Source: a virus (taxonomy: Duplodnaviria; Heunggongvirae; Uroviricota; Caudoviricetes). From it: a stretch of DNA of 5,110 nucleotides. Below the pieces are notes generated by a model. That model had not been told where the DNA came from and did not search any database. It worked only from the letters and a program-made list of their open reading frames with translations. The stretch spans positions 1 through 5,110 of IMG/VR virus record IMGVR_UViG_2698536657_000013; one strand, written 5' to 3'. Numbering within the stretch: the stretch's first letter is position 1; each line of letters opens with the position of its first letter. Shown here piece by piece: positions 1,018-5,110 of this stretch. The translations under genes and the position numbers were made by a program.

Positions 1018-2172
1018 ATGAAAAAAACGACAGTGGCACTTTCTGCTGTAGCAGTGGCAGTGATGTTTGCTGCGGGGGTGCAGGCAGCAGAAGTTTATAA
1101 TAAAGATGGTAATAAACTGGATCTTTACGGGCGTGTAACCGCTCTGCATTACTTCTCGGATGATAAAGGTAATGACGGAGACCAGACTTATGCTCGTCTC
1201 GGCTTTAAAGGCGAAACGCAGATTAATGATCAACTGACCGGATTTGGTCAGTGGGAATACCAGTTCTCTGGTAACAAAACGGAATCTGAAGGTTCCGCGG
1301 GAAATAAAACCCGTCTGGCATTTGCAGGTCTGAGATTTGCAGATGTTGGTACCATTGATTACGGACGTAACTATGGTATTGCTTATGATGTCGGATCATA
1401 TACTGACGTACTGCCTGAGTTTGGTGGTGATGGCTGGACGCAGACCGATAACTTTATGACGGCCCGAACTTCCGGTGTCCTGACTTACCGTAATACAGAC
1501 TTCTTCGGGCTGGTTGATGGTCTGAATTTTGCGGCGCAGTATCAGGGCAAAAATGAGCGTGATGACCTTCAGAAGGCTAATGGCGACGGGTATGGTTTCT
1601 CGGCCAGCTATGAGTTTGATGGTTTTGGTTTTGTCGCTGCGTATACCAAGTCAGATCGTACCGATAAGCAGGTTCAGGGGTTGAACGGTACTGCAGATGT
1701 TCTTGATCCTGAATCAGGTAAAAAGGTTGGAGAAAAAACAGTTGACTCAGGTAGTGTGGCAAAAGGTAAACATGCTGAATTCTGGGGAACTGGTCTTAAA
1801 TATGATGCCAATAACCTGTATCTGGCAGCAGTGTATTCTGAAACCCAGAATATGACGACCTTTGGTGATCAAGGTGTTGCGGATAAAGCTCAGAATATCG
1901 AAGCCGTTGTTCAGTATCAGTTTGATTTTGGTCTGCGCCCGTCCCTTGCCTACCTTCAGTCCCGCGGACAGGATGTTATGGTTGGTGGTGTGAACCATGG
2001 CGATCAGGATCTGGTTAAATATATTGATGTCGGTGCGACTTATTACTTTAACAAGAATATGTCCACCTATGTTGATTATAAAATTAACCTGATTGATGAA
2101 AGTGAATTTACCCGGAAAGCCGGTGTTGCGACAGATAATATCGTTGCTGTGGGTATGACTTATCAGTTCTGA
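1018..2172 (+). CDS. Outer-membrane general porin, OmpC/OmpF/PhoE family (prophage-borne NmpC/Lc-like lysogenic-conversion porin)
   Basis: 384-aa ORF. Signal peptide [23 protein letters not shown] followed by mature N-terminus [16 protein letters not shown]. Porin hallmark blocks: [109 protein letters not shown]. Ends in ...YQF, the beta-barrel C-terminal aromatic. Codon and base composition are more AT-rich than the flanking tail genes. Confidence 0.95.
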
Positions 2173-2381: not shown

Positions 2382-3080
2382 ATGCAGGATATTCACGAAG
2401 AAAGCCTGAACGAGTCGGTTAAGTCAGAGCAGTCACCGCGGGTGGTGCTCTGGGAAATCGACCTGACGGTGCAGGGCGGTGAGCGGTATTTTTTCTGCAA
2501 TGAGCTGAATGAAAAAGGGGAGCCGGTGACCTGGCAGGGGCGTGAATATCAGGCGTACCCGATTGAGGGCAGCGGCTTTGAGATGAACGGAAAGGGCAGC
2601 AGTGCCCGCCCGTCGCTGACGGTGTCCAATCTTTTCGGGCTGGTCACCGGGATGGCGGAGGATTTGCAGAGCCTGGTGGGTGCCACGGTGGTCCGCCGCC
2701 GGGTGTATGCGCGTTTTCTGGATGCGGTGAATTTTGTGGCAGGGAATCCTGAGGCAGACCCTGAGCAGGAGCTGACGGACCGGTGGGTGGTGGAGCAGAT
2801 GTCATCGCTGACGGCCATGACGGCCTCGTTTGTGCTGGCGACACCGACGGAGACGGACGGTGCGTTGTTTCCCGGTCGCATCATGCTGGCGAACACCTGT
2901 ATGTGGGATTACCGGGGCGATGAGTGCGGGTATAACGGTCCGGCAGTGGCGGATGAGTTCGACAACCCCACCACGGATATCCGGAAGGACAGATGCAGTA
3001 AATGCATGCGCGGGTGTGAGATGCGCGGCATGGTGGCTAATTTTGGCGGTTTCCTTTCCATCAATAAACTTTCGCAGTAA
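2382..3080 (+). CDS. Tail tip protein L (lambda gpL-like)
   Basis: ATG at 2382 (MQDIHEESLNE...). The ORF-track start at 2340 is a TTG inside the terminator hairpin and is unlikely. gpL-like blocks: VVLWEIDLT, GGERYFFCNELNEKGEPVTWQG, GKGSSARPSLTVSNLFG, FPGRIMLANTC, FGGFLSINKLSQ. C-terminal Cys cluster present. Stop TAA at 3078-3080. Confidence 0.9.
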   Translation: MQDIHEESLNESVKSEQSPRVVLWEIDLTVQGGERYFFCNELNEKGEPVTWQGREYQAYPIEGSGFEMNGKGSSARPSLTVSNLFGLVTGMAEDLQSLVGATVVRRRVYARFLDAVNFVAGNPEADPEQELTDRWVVEQMSSLTAMTASFVLATPTETDGALFPGRIMLANTCMWDYRGDECGYNGPAVADEFDNPTTDIRKDRCSKCMRGCEMRGMVANFGGFLSINKLSQ

Positions 3081-3090
3081 ATCCCGTTTT

Positions 3091-3834
3091 ATGACACAGA
3101 CTGAATCAGCGATTCTGGCGCATGCCCGGCGGTGTGCGCCAGCGGAGTCGTGCGGCTTCGTGATAAGCACCCCGGAGGGCGAACGGTACCAGCCCTGCGT
3201 GAATATCTCCGCAGAGCCGGAGGCGTATTTTCGTATTGCACCGGAAGACTGGCTGCAGGCACAGATGCAGGGGGAGATTATGGCGCTGGTCCACAGTCAT
3301 CCCGGTGGTCTGCCCTGGCTGAGCGAGGCTGACCGGCGGCTGCAGATAAAGAGTGCCCTGCCCTGGTGGCTGGTCTGCCGGGGCGACATTCACCGGTTCC
3401 GCTGTGTGCCGCACCTGACCGGACGGCGCTTTGAACACGGTGTGACGGACTGTTACAGCCTGTTCCGGGATGCATACCATCTGGCGGGGATAACGCTGCC
3501 GGATTTTGTGCGTGAGGATGACTGGTGGCGCAACGGCCAGAACCTGTACCTGGACAACCTGGCGGACAACGGCTTTTACCGGGTGTCTCCGTCCTGTGCA
3601 CAGGCGGGCGATATCCTGCTGTGCTGCTTTGGTTCATCGGTGCCGAATCATGCCGCCATTTACTGTGGCAACGGTGAACTGCTTCACCATATACCTGAAC
3701 AACTGAGTAAACGGGAGAGGTATTCTGAAAAATGGCAACGACGAACGCATTCTGTCTGGCGTCACCGCCACTGGTCCGTATCTGCCTTCACGGGGATTTA
3801 CAACGATTTGGTCGCCGCATCAGCCTGTATGTGA
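3091..3834 (+). CDS. Tail tip assembly protein K (lambda gpK-like); JAB/MPN (JAMM) metalloprotease-like domain plus NlpC/P60 domain
   Basis: ATG at 3091 (MTQTESAILAHARR...), 11 nt after the L stop. The ORF-track start at 2830 overlaps L in another frame and is rejected. JAMM motif HSHPGGLPWLSEAD (H-x-H-x7-S-x2-D) starts at nt 3292. NlpC/P60-like Cys (GVTDCYSLF) and His (VPNHAAIY). Overlaps the I gene by 103 nt as in lambda. Start is uncertain: lambda's own K annotation is shorter, so a later start is possible. Confidence 0.85.
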   Translation: MTQTESAILAHARRCAPAESCGFVISTPEGERYQPCVNISAEPEAYFRIAPEDWLQAQMQGEIMALVHSHPGGLPWLSEADRRLQIKSALPWWLVCRGDIHRFRCVPHLTGRRFEHGVTDCYSLFRDAYHLAGITLPDFVREDDWWRNGQNLYLDNLADNGFYRVSPSCAQAGDILLCCFGSSVPNHAAIYCGNGELLHHIPEQLSKRERYSEKWQRRTHSVWRHRHWSVSAFTGIYNDLVAASACM

Positions 3835-4412
3835 ACACGGCAGCGGAGGCCATCCGTGCCCTGTCGCTGCAGGTGCCGGGATTCCGCGGTCAGATGAACG
3901 AAGGCTGGTATCAGATACGTATTGCCGGTGAGGATACCGCGCCGGAGGCGGTGTATGCCCGTCTTCATGAGCCACTGAGCGGGAGGGCCGTGATTCATAT
4001 TGTACCGCGGCTGGCCGGAGCCGGGGGAAATGGTGTTTTTCAGGTGGTGCTGGGGGTTGCAGCGATTGTCGGGTCATTTTTCACTGGTGGTGCAACACTG
4101 GCGGCATGGGGCGCAGCCCTGAGTGCCGGAGGGCTGACTGCCACCACGATGCTGTTCTCACTGGGTGCCAGCATGATACTGGGTGGTGTGGCTCAGATGC
4201 TGGCCCCGAAGGCAAAGACGCCGGAGTATAAAAGTACGGATAACGGTAAACAGAACACGTATTTTTCGTCACTGGACAACATGATTGCCCAGGGTAACCC
4301 GATGCCGGTGCCTTACGGTGAAATGCTGGTTGGTTCACGACGGATATCCCAGGATATCAGCACCCGTGATGAGGGCGGAGACGGGAAAGTGGTGGTTATC
4401 GGGCGGGGATAA
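3732..4412 (+). CDS. Tail assembly protein I (lambda gpI-like; N-terminal ubiquitin-like beta-grasp domain)
   Basis: 226-aa ORF MATTNAFCLASPPLVRICLHGDLQRFGRRI... with gpI-like blocks (YQIRIAG, VIHIVPR.AGA, Gly/Ala-rich hydrophobic segment, GKQNTYFSSLDNM.AQGN, YGEM.VGSR). Starts inside the 3' end of K. Stop TAA at 4410-4412. Confidence 0.9.
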   Translation: MATTNAFCLASPPLVRICLHGDLQRFGRRISLYVNTAAEAIRALSLQVPGFRGQMNEGWYQIRIAGEDTAPEAVYARLHEPLSGRAVIHIVPRLAGAGGNGVFQVVLGVAAIVGSFFTGGATLAAWGAALSAGGLTATTMLFSLGASMILGGVAQMLAPKAKTPEYKSTDNGKQNTYFSSLDNMIAQGNPMPVPYGEMLVGSRRISQDISTRDEGGDGKVVVIGRG

Positions 4413-4451
4413 AAATAAAAAAAATCCCGCAGAGTTAGTGGAGCTGCGGGA
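4411..4451 (-). terminator. Rho-independent terminator, minus strand (cassette A)
   Basis: Read on the minus strand: stem TCCCGCAG / CTGCGGGA (4425-4451, 8 bp, 11-nt loop) followed by a U-run (plus-strand A-tract 4411-4424). The U-run abuts the stop codon of I, so it is convergent with the tail operon. Confidence 0.6.
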
Positions 4452-4509
4452 AATAACGATGAAGATTAATGTTATGGAGTTATTTTTTTGGGCAGAAAAA
4501 CATTAACGC
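4411..4509 (-). ncRNA. Putative small RNA, cassette A (about 100 nt, minus strand)
   Basis: Bounded by minus-strand -10 TATAAT (plus coordinates 4516-4521) and the terminator at 4411-4451. No convincing ORF with an RBS. Body contains A-rich runs and the pyrimidine motif AACUCC. Ends with a U-tail. Start is estimated, not mapped. Confidence 0.3.
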
Positions 4510-4542
4510 AGCGAAATTATAAGCGCTACATGGATTTTGCGA

Positions 4543-4564
4543 AAATGTGAAGAAATTCAGAAAT
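4543..4564. promoter_or_regulatory. CRP-like box (AAATGTGA-agaaat-TCAGAaat) upstream of the minus-strand -10 of cassette A
   Basis: Matches the CRP consensus AAATGTGA-N6-TCACATTT with one half-site mismatch (TCAGA). The 5' T of TGTGA is 25 bp from the minus-strand TATAAT, placing the site centre roughly 41-45 bp upstream of the predicted start (class II-like). Confidence 0.35.
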
Positions 4565-4640
4565 TTTTTGCTGCAGAGGTGCAGGGAGCTTGCCGGGTAT
4601 CTGTGGCAGAAGACAGAAAACATCATGCCGGGGTTAAGGG

Positions 4641-4676
4641 ATAAAAAAATCCCGCAGAGTTAGCGGAGCTGCGGGA
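4641..4676 (-). terminator. Rho-independent terminator, minus strand (cassette B)
   Basis: Same 8-bp stem (4650-4657 / 4669-4676) followed on the minus strand by 7 U (plus-strand A-run 4643-4649). Confidence 0.6.
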
Positions 4677-4740
4677 CAGAACCGATGAAGATTAACGTTC
4701 AAGGAGTTTTGTTTTTATTGACCCGAAAAAACTGTAACGC
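4641..4740 (-). ncRNA. Putative small RNA, cassette B (about 100 nt, minus strand)
   Basis: Bounded by minus-strand -10 TATCAT (4747-4752) and the terminator at 4641-4676. Body shares AACUCCUUGAACGUUAAUCUUCAUCG with cassette A. Confidence 0.3.
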
Positions 4741-4773
4741 CCCGGAATGATATCTGCCATGGGGACGCACAGG

Positions 4774-4795
4774 AAATGTGAAGAAATTCAGACTT
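4774..4795. promoter_or_regulatory. CRP-like box, cassette B
   Basis: AAATGTGA-agaaat-TCAGActt. Same 25-bp offset to minus-strand TATCAT (4747-4752). Confidence 0.35.
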
Positions 4796-4877
4796 TTTCT
4801 GTCGCAGGTTTACAGAACGGATTACCGCCGGGGTACCAGTGGCGTAAATGAGCCGGATGTTGTGGTGCGGCTGAAGC

Positions 4878-4917
4878 AAAAAAATCTCCCGTAATATCGC
4901 CGGATACTGACGGGAGA
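4878..4917 (-). terminator. Rho-independent terminator, minus strand (cassette C)
   Basis: Stem TCTCCCGT / ACGGGAGA (4885-4892 / 4910-4917) followed on the minus strand by 7 U (plus-strand A-run 4878-4884). Sequence differs from A and B but pairing is fully preserved. Confidence 0.55.
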
Positions 4918-4980
4918 CGAATAGTCACCTTAAGGAGGTCTGATAATTATTGCTTTTATTGAGCAAAAAAACTGTAACGC
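4878..4980 (-). ncRNA. Putative small RNA, cassette C (about 100 nt, minus strand)
   Basis: Bounded by minus-strand -10 TATAAT (4987-4992) and the terminator at 4878-4917. Body contains ACCUCCUUA, identical to the 16S rRNA anti-Shine-Dalgarno sequence. Confidence 0.3.
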
Positions 4981-5013
4981 TGCATCATTATAGCGGCTAC
5001 AGGCAATTGCCGG

Positions 5014-5035
5014 AAATGTGAAGAATTTCAGAAAT
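5014..5035. promoter_or_regulatory. CRP-like box, cassette C
   Basis: AAATGTGA-agaatt-TCAGAaat. Same 25-bp offset to minus-strand TATAAT (4987-4992). Confidence 0.35.
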
Positions 5036-5051
5036 TTTATTCCGTCATGAC

Positions 5052-5083
5052 ACAGGCACCCTCCGGGGTGCCTGTCGTTTTCT
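5052..5083 (+). terminator. Rho-independent terminator, plus strand
   Basis: ACAGGCACCC (5052-5061), loop TCCG, GGGTGCCTGT (5066-5075), then cgTTTTcT (5076-5083). Perfect 10-bp stem. The T-run is modest (4 T). Confidence 0.5.
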
Positions 5084-5110
5084 GGCATAAACAGATTCAG
5101 ACATCAGACA

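What the first reader, a model, noticed from the sequence alone, without database searches (positions are those of the whole stretch)
4452..4960. Pyrimidine-rich anti-Shine-Dalgarno-like motif in the predicted RNA bodies
On the minus strand the three bodies contain AACUCCAUAAC (A), AACUCCUUGAAC (B) and ACCUCCUUAAGG (C). The last contains ACCUCCUUA, identical to the anti-SD at the 3' end of 16S rRNA. A single-stranded CUCC element is a common seed for sRNAs that occlude ribosome-binding sites, so these RNAs could repress translation of host or phage mRNAs.
Basis: inference. Interest (0 to 1): 0.5.

Follow-up and report, generated by a model that had tools for sequence, protein, structure and literature searches.

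The report
Seed motif in tandem PasB sRNAs
The CUCC stretch is real and sits at the same position in three side-by-side copies of a known prophage small RNA (PasB family), and published interaction data for the EPEC homologue, re-analysed here, place it at the front edge of the region that pairs with target mRNAs, often at ribosome-binding sites.

Summary
The window is a lambdoid prophage tail module (H-M-porin-L-K-I). The I-J spacer (4413-5110) holds three tandem ~230-bp units. Each unit has a promoter, a ~95-nt RNA and an intrinsic terminator on the minus strand. Units A and B are homologues of PasB, an Hfq-dependent sRNA validated in EPEC E2348/69, which lies at the same I-J position and orientation. 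Unit C shares the promoter and 5' third but has a different 3' body and terminator.

Across 36 distinct PasB-type variants the motif is semi-conserved: CUCC in 23, and most of the rest are C-to-U changes. It is predicted mostly unpaired in 35 of 36.

I re-analysed 29 published PasB RIL-seq target fragments. Complementarity is enriched only for PasB nt ~29-60. It peaks on AACUCCUUCACAUUG against random, generic start-site and other-sRNA-target controls. About a third to a half of the predicted sites cover Shine-Dalgarno or start codons.

CUCC is the 5' edge of a longer seed, not a stand-alone anti-SD. The 9-nt 16S identity in C is not conserved in C's relatives. No repression has been shown. 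These are new members of a known family, and the tandem, seed-diverged array is not in the literature I could search.

The parts
4417..4509 (-). Unit A predicted sRNA (about 93 nt), PasB-type
   Evidence: It aligns with E2348/69 PasB at 77% over the RNA and 79% over the whole unit. The fold has a 5' helix, a 25-nt loop containing the motif and a terminator. The start is inferred from the -10 box.
4471..4481 (-). Motif A, AACUCCAUAAC (seed box 1)
   Evidence: Exact match. CUCC has P(unpaired) 0.84-1.0.
4459..4469 (-). Unit A seed box 2, UUAAUCUUCAU
   Evidence: AUCUU is invariant in 36 distinct variants. The homologous PasB region is enriched for target complementarity.
4417..4450 (-). Unit A terminator hairpin (4426-4450) plus U8 tail (4417-4424)
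   Evidence: It closely matches the published PasB Northern probe AATCCCGCAGTGATCGCGGAGCT, differing in the loop.
4516..4521 (-). Unit A -10 box, TATAAT
   Evidence: The promoter scan gave 10/12 matches, with TTCGCA at a 16-nt spacer.
4546..4561 (-). Unit A conserved upstream block, TCTGA-N6-TCACA (CRP-like)
   Evidence: Both half-sites are invariant in 34 distinct promoter regions. The CRP assignment is an inference and was not tested.
4643..4740 (-). Unit B predicted sRNA (about 98 nt), PasB-type
   Evidence: 79% identity to PasB and 82% to A. Terminator hairpin plus U7.
4697..4708 (-). Motif B, AACUCCUUGAAC (seed box 1)
   Evidence: Exact match. CUCC has P(unpaired) 0.38-0.75.
4685..4695 (-). 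Unit B seed box 2, UUAAUCUUCAU
4747..4752 (-). Unit B -10 box, TATCAT
   Evidence: It aligns with TATAAT of A, C and PasB.
4777..4792 (-). Unit B conserved upstream block, TCTGA-N6-TCACA
4878..4980 (-). Unit C predicted sRNA (about 103 nt), a divergent 'C-type' paralogue
   Evidence: It shares the promoter and first ~35 nt with B, but has a different 3' body and a longer terminator. The body is found in 21/5426 complete E. coli genomes and in no phage record, and is never annotated.
4928..4939 (-). Motif C, ACCUCCUUAAGG (contains ACCUCCUUA, the 16S 3' end)
   Evidence: Exact match. ACCU/AGGU forms a predicted 4-bp hairpin with CCUUA in the loop. P(unpaired) for C,U,C,C is 0.14, 0.22, 0.97, 0.95.
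4987..4992 (-). Unit C -10 box, TATAAT
5017..5032 (-). Unit C conserved upstream block, TCTGA-N6-TCACA
5052..5075 (+). 10-bp hairpin followed by a T-run, just upstream of J; part of the repeated unit (degenerate copies in A and B)
   Evidence: The terminator-like scan found it. It is conserved in E2348/69. Degenerate copies appear as repeat D7.
3831..4412 (+). Tail assembly gene I (left border of the spacer)
   Evidence: Pfam Lambda_tail_I. RefSeq annotation in the 99.6%-identical locus L001, where gpJ starts 15 nt beyond the end of the region matching the window.

Best explanation
The I-J spacer of this lambdoid prophage carries three tandem, diverged paralogues of the PasB small-RNA gene, transcribed antisense to the tail operon.

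Each RNA has the following layout: a conserved 5' end (GCGUUA plus a U-run), an A-rich (ARN-like) tract, and a pyrimidine-rich seed. A Rho-independent terminator with a U-tail follows.

The most likely mode of action is that of an Hfq-dependent trans-acting sRNA. Hfq holds the U-tail and the A-rich tract. The exposed seed pairs with purine-rich mRNA stretches of the type NNNNAAGGAG. When such a stretch is the Shine-Dalgarno or start region, 30S binding is blocked. The UCC/CUCC bases supply the SD-complementary part and the variable bases next to them supply specificity. The three paralogues (UCCAUAACA, UCCUUGAAC, UCCUUAAGG) should therefore address different mRNA sets.

Shown here or in the literature: the family identity, the position, the Hfq dependence of PasB, and the localisation of target complementarity to this region of PasB.

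Inferred: expression of A, B and C; their transcription start sites; translational repression as the outcome; and the division of targets among the paralogues.
For: Context:
- The flanking genes are the tail genes M, L, K and I, with a porin gene inserted between M and L (Pfam). gpJ follows directly in the 99.6%-identical locus L001.

Homology:
- PasB is given at NC_011601 1466343..1466261, minus strand (table S6 of PMC8550237). That lies between I and J of prophage PP6.
- PasB aligns with units A and B through promoter, 5' end, motif, box 2 and terminator.

Family:
- 80 IMG/VR loci found with the I protein give 76 units and 40 distinct RNAs with the same layout.
- The motif columns are 81-97% conserved, and the substitutions are mainly C to U, which still pairs with G.
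- The motif is predicted mostly unpaired (P>0.5) in 35/36 variants.

Experimental data on PasB:
- A Northern blot confirmed the RNA. It is strongly reduced in the hfq deletion (log2FC -6.8 and -2.4), and it has 37 RIL-seq partners.

Re-analysis of RIL-seq:
- Complementarity of 29 target fragments is enriched only for PasB nt ~29-60, peaking at nt 34-48.
- This holds against random windows, 102 generic start-site windows and 17 targets of other sRNAs.
- Compact duplexes lie at napF (-17..+6, 16 bp), caiF, yijD SD, gshA, ydbJ and tolC.

Paralogue divergence:
- The seed of A pairs much less well with the PasB targets (mean -13.7 against -19.0 kcal/mol), so the seeds have diverged.
Against: - No expression, Hfq-binding or target data exist for A, B or C themselves.
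- The start sites are inferred. The published PasB 5' end is about 15 nt downstream of my predicted start.
- Pearl Mizrahi et al. found no common target motif for PasB.
- At least half of the predicted sites are CDS-internal or at 3' ends, where RIL-seq signal can reflect Hfq co-occupancy rather than regulation.
- Duplex energies ignore accessibility. The controls, although three kinds were used, come from about 100 kb of one genome.
- RNAalifold supports only the terminator, so there is no covariation evidence for a conserved scaffold that presents the motif.
- In C half of the motif is predicted paired. C-type relatives in two-unit spacers lack a -10 box.
Confidence: 0.6

Rival explanations
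1. The RNAs act mainly in cis. They are perfectly complementary to the late tail transcript between I and J. They would then trigger RNase III cleavage, transcriptional interference or silencing of leaky J expression. On this reading, CUCC is just the complement of GGAG on the mRNA strand. This is compatible with the trans model.
For: The units always lie antisense to the late operon at the same junction, in 66 of 80 related loci. The array triples the antisense dose. The unit also carries a plus-strand terminator-like hairpin in front of J.
Against: PasB has many trans partners and depends on Hfq, whereas fully complementary antisense RNAs usually do not need Hfq. No chimera with its own antisense region is in the lists I read. 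The same slot can hold sodC instead, so the junction tolerates unrelated cargo. The conserved seed-like boxes next to variable bases fit trans pairing better.
Confidence: 0.2
2. CUCC is a passenger conserved by recent common descent. The working seed is only the invariant box 2 (UUAAUCUUCAU), close to the single-stranded site proposed by Zhu et al.
For: Box 2 is more conserved (AUCUU 100%) than the motif (81-97%). Windows over box 2 are also enriched in targets. Several strong duplexes use only box 2, for example tolC, yhiD and ydbJ. One variant has lost the motif (UUAU).
Against: The strongest enrichment lies on the windows that contain UCC/CUCC (nt 34-48), under all three controls. In 20 of 29 targets all four motif bases pair in the best 14-nt duplex. 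The substitutions in the motif are almost all C to U, which preserves pairing with G. C keeps the motif but has lost box 2.
Confidence: 0.15
3. The GGAG on the plus strand is coding or a true SD. A small plus-strand peptide gene (MKINV...) would overlap the RNA, as in a type I toxin-antitoxin pair, with the minus-strand RNA as antitoxin.
For: Plus-strand ORFs exist: MKINVKELFLLLGQKNTNAAKL (E2348/69), MKINVQGVLFLLTRKNCNAPE (B) and MKINVMELFFWAEKH (A). Three third-position differences occur in the first five codons (my reading).
Against: In about half of the 36 variants the ATG is ACG or ACA (box 2 reads AAUCUUCGU or AAUCUUUGU). Unit A has a 5-nt deletion that shifts the frame. C has no ATG. No SD lies at a proper distance.
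Confidence: 0.03
4. Unit C is a genuine anti-SD mimic. It would pair with any strong SD (UAAGGAGGU) and act as a broad translational damper or decoy, rather than as a gene-specific sRNA.
For: It has 9/9 identity to the 16S 3' end. The family consensus already carries CUCCUUA, the last 7 nt of 16S.
Against: C-type relatives read AACUCCUUA. ACCU is predicted paired. The body occurs in only 21/5426 genomes. There are no expression data. No phage start site in the window stands out as a target.
Confidence: 0.05

Closest known systems
PasB sRNA of EPEC E2348/69 (Pearl Mizrahi et al. 2021, PMC8550237; Zhu, Shabalina & Storz 2026 preprint, 10.64898/2026.05.13.724894)
   Same: It has the same genomic slot (between tail genes I and J), the same antisense orientation, and the same promoter block and -10. 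It also shares the 5' end GCGUUA, the AACUCC motif, AUCUUCAU and the terminator stem CCCGCAG/CUGCGGG. Identity to A and B is 77-79%.
   Different: Here there are three tandem copies, whereas the preprint reports the closest pasB copies as 28 kb apart (table in its supplementary Fig. S7) and, for pasA, concludes that copies are not tandem duplicates. The bases next to CUCC differ in each copy. Unit C has a different 3' half and terminator. The preprint describes PasB as the least variable Pas sRNA, but the I-J slot holds at least 40 distinct RNAs.
AgvB and AsxR 'anti-sRNAs' of EHEC prophages (Tree et al. 2014, PMC4104026)
   Same: They are prophage-encoded, Hfq-bound short RNAs. They form families with one conserved part and one variable part, and they sit at a fixed slot in lambdoid phages.
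   Different: They lie at the PR' moron site, not in the tail operon. They are 51-60 nt long with a variable 5' end and a conserved 3' part, and they act by sponging core sRNAs (GcvB, FnrS). No Rfam hit to RF02702 or RF02703 was found here.
Hfq class II sRNAs such as ChiX and MgrR (own knowledge: Schu et al. 2015)
   Same: They have an A-rich ARN-type tract upstream of the seed plus a U-tail terminator, and a pyrimidine-rich seed that pairs at ribosome-binding sites.
   Different: There is no sequence relationship. The class assignment was not tested here.
C-rich-seed sRNAs that occlude SD sequences, e.g. RsaE/RoxS of Firmicutes (own knowledge)
   Same: The principle is the same: an unpaired C/U-rich element pairs with the G-rich SD.
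   Different: Those are from a different phylum and family, work independently of Hfq, and carry several CCC loops. Here there is a single linear seed.
Sib/Ibs type I toxin-antitoxin repeats (own knowledge)
   Same: They are tandemly repeated units, each encoding a small antisense RNA.
   Different: They require a conserved toxic peptide ORF on the opposite strand. That ORF is not conserved here.

Membership tests
PasB sRNA family | The gene lies between lambdoid tail genes I and J, antisense to the late operon. | tested here: met
   PasB's coordinates fall between the tail assembly protein gene and gpJ in E2348/69. The window units follow gene I, and gpJ follows in L001.
PasB sRNA family | Sequence homology to PasB over the RNA and its promoter. 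| tested here: met
   A is 77% and B 79% identical over the RNA. C is 69%, mostly in the promoter and 5' third. An nhmmer profile of the family finds the same unit in other loci at E 1e-18 to 1e-22. C is a divergent member at best.
PasB sRNA family | Rho-independent terminator with a U-tail (Hfq-binding module). | tested here: met
   All three have GC-rich hairpins followed by 7-8 U.
PasB sRNA family | Expressed as a transcript of about 80-100 nt whose stability depends on Hfq. | not testable with these tools
   This is shown only for PasB in E2348/69 (Northern blot; log2FC -6.8 in the hfq deletion).
PasB sRNA family | Single-stranded seed upstream of the terminator that pairs with RIL-seq partners. 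| tested here: inconclusive
   For PasB itself, target complementarity maps to nt ~29-60 including CUCC. For A, B and C only the conservation of the boxes and the predicted accessibility could be checked.
Any Rfam family (including AgvB, AsxR, Esr41, STnc100, IpeX-like) | Match to a curated covariance model. | tested here: not met
   cmscan of the whole window at E up to 1 gave no match. No tRNA or tmRNA was found.
Type I toxin-antitoxin (Ibs/Sib-like) | A conserved small ORF with a start codon on the strand opposite the RNA. | tested here: not met
   The ATG is replaced by ACG or ACA in about half of the variants. A has a frameshift, and C has no ATG.
Anti-SD mimic (identity to the 16S rRNA 3' end) | An ACCUCCUUA stretch that is conserved and exposed. 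| tested here: not met
   It is present only in C of this window and its two near-identical loci. Relatives have AACUCCUUA, and ACCU is predicted paired.

The most novel reading that the evidence does not exclude
The I-J junction of lambdoid phages is a dedicated slot for a fast-evolving sRNA cassette. The promoter, the Hfq module and an SD-complementary anchor (CUCC) stay fixed, while the adjacent specificity bases diversify. Tandem duplication, as in this three-gene array, lets one prophage carry several retargeted regulators. One of them (C) has drifted into a full 9-nt anti-SD mimic that could damp translation of strong-SD host mRNAs.
Probability: 0.12. Interest if true: 0.7.

Novelty: new member of a known kind. 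Interest (0 to 1): 0.4.

Why it matters
PasB is among the most connected accessory-genome sRNAs in EPEC. Its RIL-seq partners include ler, map, bfp, per, rpoS, ftsZ and tolC, yet its function and seed are unknown.

This work places the seed on AACUCCUUCACAUUG...UCUUCAU. The I-J slot carries dozens of seed variants, sometimes two or three in tandem in STEC prophages. Together these results give concrete, testable predictions for how prophages rewire host and virulence gene expression. They also suggest that BLAST-based surveys underestimate the diversity of this family.

It is not a new kind of regulator.

Tried and rejected
- Rfam (E up to 1) and ARAGORN found nothing.
- Plus-strand small peptide or type I TA idea: rejected because the start codon and reading frame are not conserved.
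- A second plus-strand ORF starting at TTG after GGAG: its frame differs between the units and E2348/69, by my reading. I dropped it.
- Full-length RNAduplex of PasB against its targets pairs the whole RNA through huge loops and is uninformative. I replaced it with 12-nt window scans.
- Conserved 5' helix enclosing the motif: it is visible in A (GUUAAUGUU/AACAUUAAU), and some variants show compensatory changes. However, its register shifts between variants, and RNAalifold keeps only the terminator. I do not claim it.
- Targets among the phage's own start sites (M, porin, L, K, I, J): none is beyond background. The best is J with C, at the 4th percentile.
- Genome-contig search for the family outside Escherichia returned only contaminant-like contigs and lambda-like loci without the unit.
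- IpeX-like RNA downstream of the porin gene: no annotation and no Rfam support.
- Searching the RIL-seq tables by phrase failed because of tab separators. I read the tables part by part instead.
Full report
**What the window is.** The window encodes the end of a tape-measure protein, then minor tail protein M (478-819) and an OmpC-like porin (1018-2172). Next come tail protein L (about 2382-3080), K (JAB plus NlpC/P60 domains, about 3091-3834) and I (3831-4412). A 99.6%-identical locus in STEC strain FHI_NMBU_11 shows that gpJ starts 15 nt beyond the end of the region matching the window. The finding therefore lies in the I-J spacer (4413-5110) of a lambdoid prophage tail operon.

**Checking the observation.** The spacer consists of three direct repeats spaced 231 and 240 bp apart. 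Read on the minus strand, each repeat has four elements:
- a highly conserved block, TCTGA-N6-TCACA;
- a -10 box (A TATAAT, B TATCAT, C TATAAT);
- about 95-103 nt of RNA;
- a GC-rich hairpin followed by 7-8 U.

By itself it is weak. CUCC occurs 7 times in the spacer against 3.9 expected (P=0.10). The 9-mer shared with the 16S rRNA 3' end extends a 7-mer that is simply the family consensus.

**Identity.** Rfam and ARAGORN gave nothing. The literature gave the decisive lead. Pearl Mizrahi et al. (2021, PMC8550237) validated five prophage sRNAs in EPEC E2348/69. For PasB, their table S6 gives an 83-nt RNA at NC_011601 1466343..1466261 on the minus strand, and the Northern probe AATCCCGCAGTGATCGCGGAGCT. 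The probe closely matches the terminators of units A and B, differing in the loop. The coordinates fall between the tail assembly gene I and gpJ of prophage PP6, antisense to them. The alignment runs through the promoter block, -10 box, 5' end GCGUUA, AACUCC, AUCUUCAU and the terminator. Identity over the RNA is 77% for A and 79% for B.

Unit C shares the promoter and the first ~35 nt with B. It then continues with CUCCUUAAGGUGACUAUUCGU and a different, longer terminator. Its body occurs in only 21 of 5426 complete E. coli genomes, mostly human STEC isolates. It is absent from the phage collection and is never annotated.

**The family.** Using the I protein I fetched 80 IMG/VR loci. The I-J spacer lengths fall into five classes:

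| Spacer length | Loci | Content |
|---|---|---|
| ~235-260 nt | 50 (49 IMG/VR loci plus the E2348/69 reference locus L002) | one unit |
| ~340 nt | 10 | one unit plus extra sequence |
| ~425 nt | 3 | two units |
| ~715 nt | L001 and L006; the window has the same three-unit spacer | three units |
| ~850 nt | 14 | no unit |

The ~850-nt spacers carry a minus-strand Cu,Zn superoxide dismutase gene instead of a unit. The junction is therefore a reverse-oriented cargo slot.

The 76 units give 40 distinct RNAs. This is far more diversity than the 'few nucleotide differences' reported for PasB in the 2026 preprint of Zhu, Shabalina and Storz. Their supplementary table gives the closest pasB copies as 28 kb apart, and for pasA they conclude that copies are not tandem duplicates. 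VT1-Sakai (Sp15) carries one unit with the same motif as unit A. Outside Escherichia-type phage DNA I found no unit.

**Anatomy and conservation.** I aligned 36 distinct PasB-type RNAs. The conserved elements are the 5' GCGUUA, a U-run, an A-rich tract, AAYUCY and UUAAUCUU, followed by the terminator. The bases between the two pyrimidine boxes and most of the 5' half vary. Key figures are:
- The motif columns are 0.81, 0.94, 0.97 and 0.81 identical.
- 23 of 36 variants have contiguous CUCC. The others read UUCC, CUCU, UUCU, CCCC, CUACC or UUAU.
- These substitutions are mostly C-to-U transitions that still pair with G.
- AUCUU in box 2 is invariant.

RNAalifold supports only the terminator. 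A 5' helix that encloses the motif in a 25-nt loop is clear in unit A but shifts register between variants, so I do not claim it.

**Is the motif unpaired?** Partition-function folding gave these results:
- Unit A: mean P(unpaired) of CUCC is 0.95.
- Unit B: 0.59.
- Unit C: 0.14, 0.22, 0.97 and 0.95 for the four bases. ACCU pairs with AGGU and presents CCUUA in a small loop.
- Across the family: median 0.71, and above 0.5 in 35 of 36 variants.

**Is it the seed?** PasB is strongly Hfq-dependent (log2FC -6.8 and -2.4 in the hfq deletion) and has 37 RIL-seq partners. I read the PasB rows of table S3. There are 8 rows in the activating condition: the seven mRNA partners bfpB, bfpI, ftsZ, galE, ler, perB and rplX (all annotated CDS), plus a chimera with the pasA-E2348C_0689 intergenic region. 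There are 34 rows in the non-activating condition: 25 CDS, 4 5'UTR, 2 IGR, 2 IGT and 1 antisense.

I fetched 29 of these regions from the E2348/69 genome and plasmid. I then scanned the PasB body in 12-nt windows with RNAduplex. Complementarity exceeds that of length-matched random genomic windows only for nt ~29-60. The maximum is at ACUCCUUCACAU, with mean energies 3.2 kcal/mol better, 16 of 29 targets in the best decile of controls, and Wilcoxon p=9e-6.

The same profile holds against 102 generic translation-initiation windows. This rules out a trivial 'any SD' effect: AACUCCUUCACA and UCCUUCACAUUG are 2.6-2.7 kcal/mol better, p about 1e-5. It also holds against 17 targets of other sRNAs, MWU p 0.001-0.03.

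Compact duplexes are listed below, with positions relative to the start codon.

| Target | Position | Note |
|---|---|---|
| napF | -17..+6 | 16 contiguous bp, -26 kcal/mol |
| caiF | -11..+18 | |
| yijD SD | inner helix about -18..-6 | reached from the fabR fragment |
| gshA | -18..+14 | |
| ydbJ | -22..+16 | |
| tolC | from -5 | |
| gene after E2348C_2648 | -11..+22 | |

Four targets share the mRNA motif UGUGAAGG(A), which pairs with UCCUUCACA. Other predicted sites are internal or 3'-terminal: map, yhhX, bfpB, yhiD, espC, the 3' end of ler, and rpoS at +30..+67. In 20 of 29 targets all four CUCC bases pair in the best 14-nt duplex.

It supplies the SD-complementary bases, and the adjacent variable bases give specificity. 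This is a computational re-analysis of published chimeras, not proof of regulation. The original authors found no common target motif for PasB.

**Consequences for the three paralogues.** The bases after UCC differ: PasB UUCACA, A AUAACA, B UUGAAC, C UUAAGG. The seed of A pairs much less well with the PasB targets, with mean -13.7 against -19.0 kcal/mol. The array therefore most likely encodes three regulators with different target sets. I could not run a genome-wide target prediction. Among the phage's own start sites nothing stands out.

**Rivals.**
- A cis-antisense role on the I-J late transcript cannot be excluded and is compatible with the trans model. Hfq dependence, many trans partners and the interchangeability of the slot's cargo argue against it being the main role.
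- A plus-strand peptide (MKINV...) overlapped by the RNA looked attractive at first, because three third-position differences occur in five codons. It fails on the family alignment: the ATG is ACG or ACA in about half of the variants, A is frameshifted and C has no ATG.
- The idea that C is a true anti-SD mimic rests on a 9-mer that its closest relatives lack, and half of the motif is predicted paired.

**Comparison with known systems.** A and B are new sequence variants of PasB, and C is a divergent paralogue. In kind they are ordinary Hfq-dependent sRNAs with a pyrimidine-rich seed, comparable to class II sRNAs such as ChiX and MgrR (own knowledge). They also resemble the prophage sRNA families of Tree et al. 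2014, which occupy a different slot and act as sponges. Three things are not in the literature I could search: the tandem, seed-diverged array; the breadth of variation in the I-J slot; and the mapping of the PasB seed from RIL-seq data.

**Verdict.** These are new members of a known family, and the interest is moderate.

Noticed in passing
window 1018-2172 (+), flank 2165-2385: An OmpC-like porin gene (Pfam Porin_1, E 2e-144) is inserted between tail genes M and L. It has its own AT-rich upstream region and a strong terminator at about 2345-2370. The same junction occurs in 86 of 5426 complete E. coli genomes.
   Followed up: partly
window 4546-4561, 4777-4792, 5017-5032 (-): Every unit has TCTGA-N6-TCACA about 44 bp upstream of the predicted start. 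Both half-sites are invariant in 34 distinct promoters while the centre varies. It resembles a CRP site (9/10 core bases). PasB is reported higher in LB than in glucose-rich DMEM. The spacing is not the classical -41.5, and nothing was tested.
   Followed up: partly
L009 2082-2934 and 13 similar loci: In about 850-nt I-J spacers the sRNA unit is replaced by a minus-strand Cu,Zn superoxide dismutase (sodC-like) gene. The I-J junction therefore acts as a reverse-oriented cargo slot.
   Followed up: partly
window 5052-5075 (+): A perfect 10-bp hairpin followed by CGTTTTCTGG lies just upstream of J. It is conserved in E2348/69, where a better T-run follows. It looks like a plus-strand terminator inside the late operon, and degenerate copies lie in units A and B.
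   Followed up: no
window 4443 and 4668 (-): A second CUCC lies in the 11-nt terminator loop of units A and B (CAG-CUCCRCUAACU-CUG). Many family members have CUCC, CCUCC or UUCC there.
   Followed up: no
E2348/69 loci L083, L088, L092, L093: The PasB RIL-seq partners ler, caiF, napF and fabR/yijD share the mRNA motif UGUGAAGG(A), complementary to UCCUUCACA of PasB. The original paper reported no target motif for PasB.
   Followed up: yes
L003, L005, L008 (two-unit spacers): The J-proximal C-type unit in these loci has the conserved upstream block but no recognisable -10 box. It may be a decayed copy or may use another promoter.
   Followed up: no
L106-L120 (genome contigs): Identical 68% matches to the I protein occur on low-coverage contigs of Bacillus, Pseudomonas, Shewanella, Bradyrhizobium and others. 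They look like phage lambda DNA contamination of those assemblies. Three further contigs (L105, L129, L136), labelled Streptomyces, Parendozoicomonas and Clostridiales, carry E. coli-type PasB units.
   Followed up: no
window 4482-4492, 4709-4722, 4946-4962 (-): An A-rich tract of ARN-type triplets (for example AAC AAA AAC AAC in PasB) lies directly 5' of the motif in all units. This suggests Hfq distal-face binding, as in class II sRNAs.
   Followed up: no
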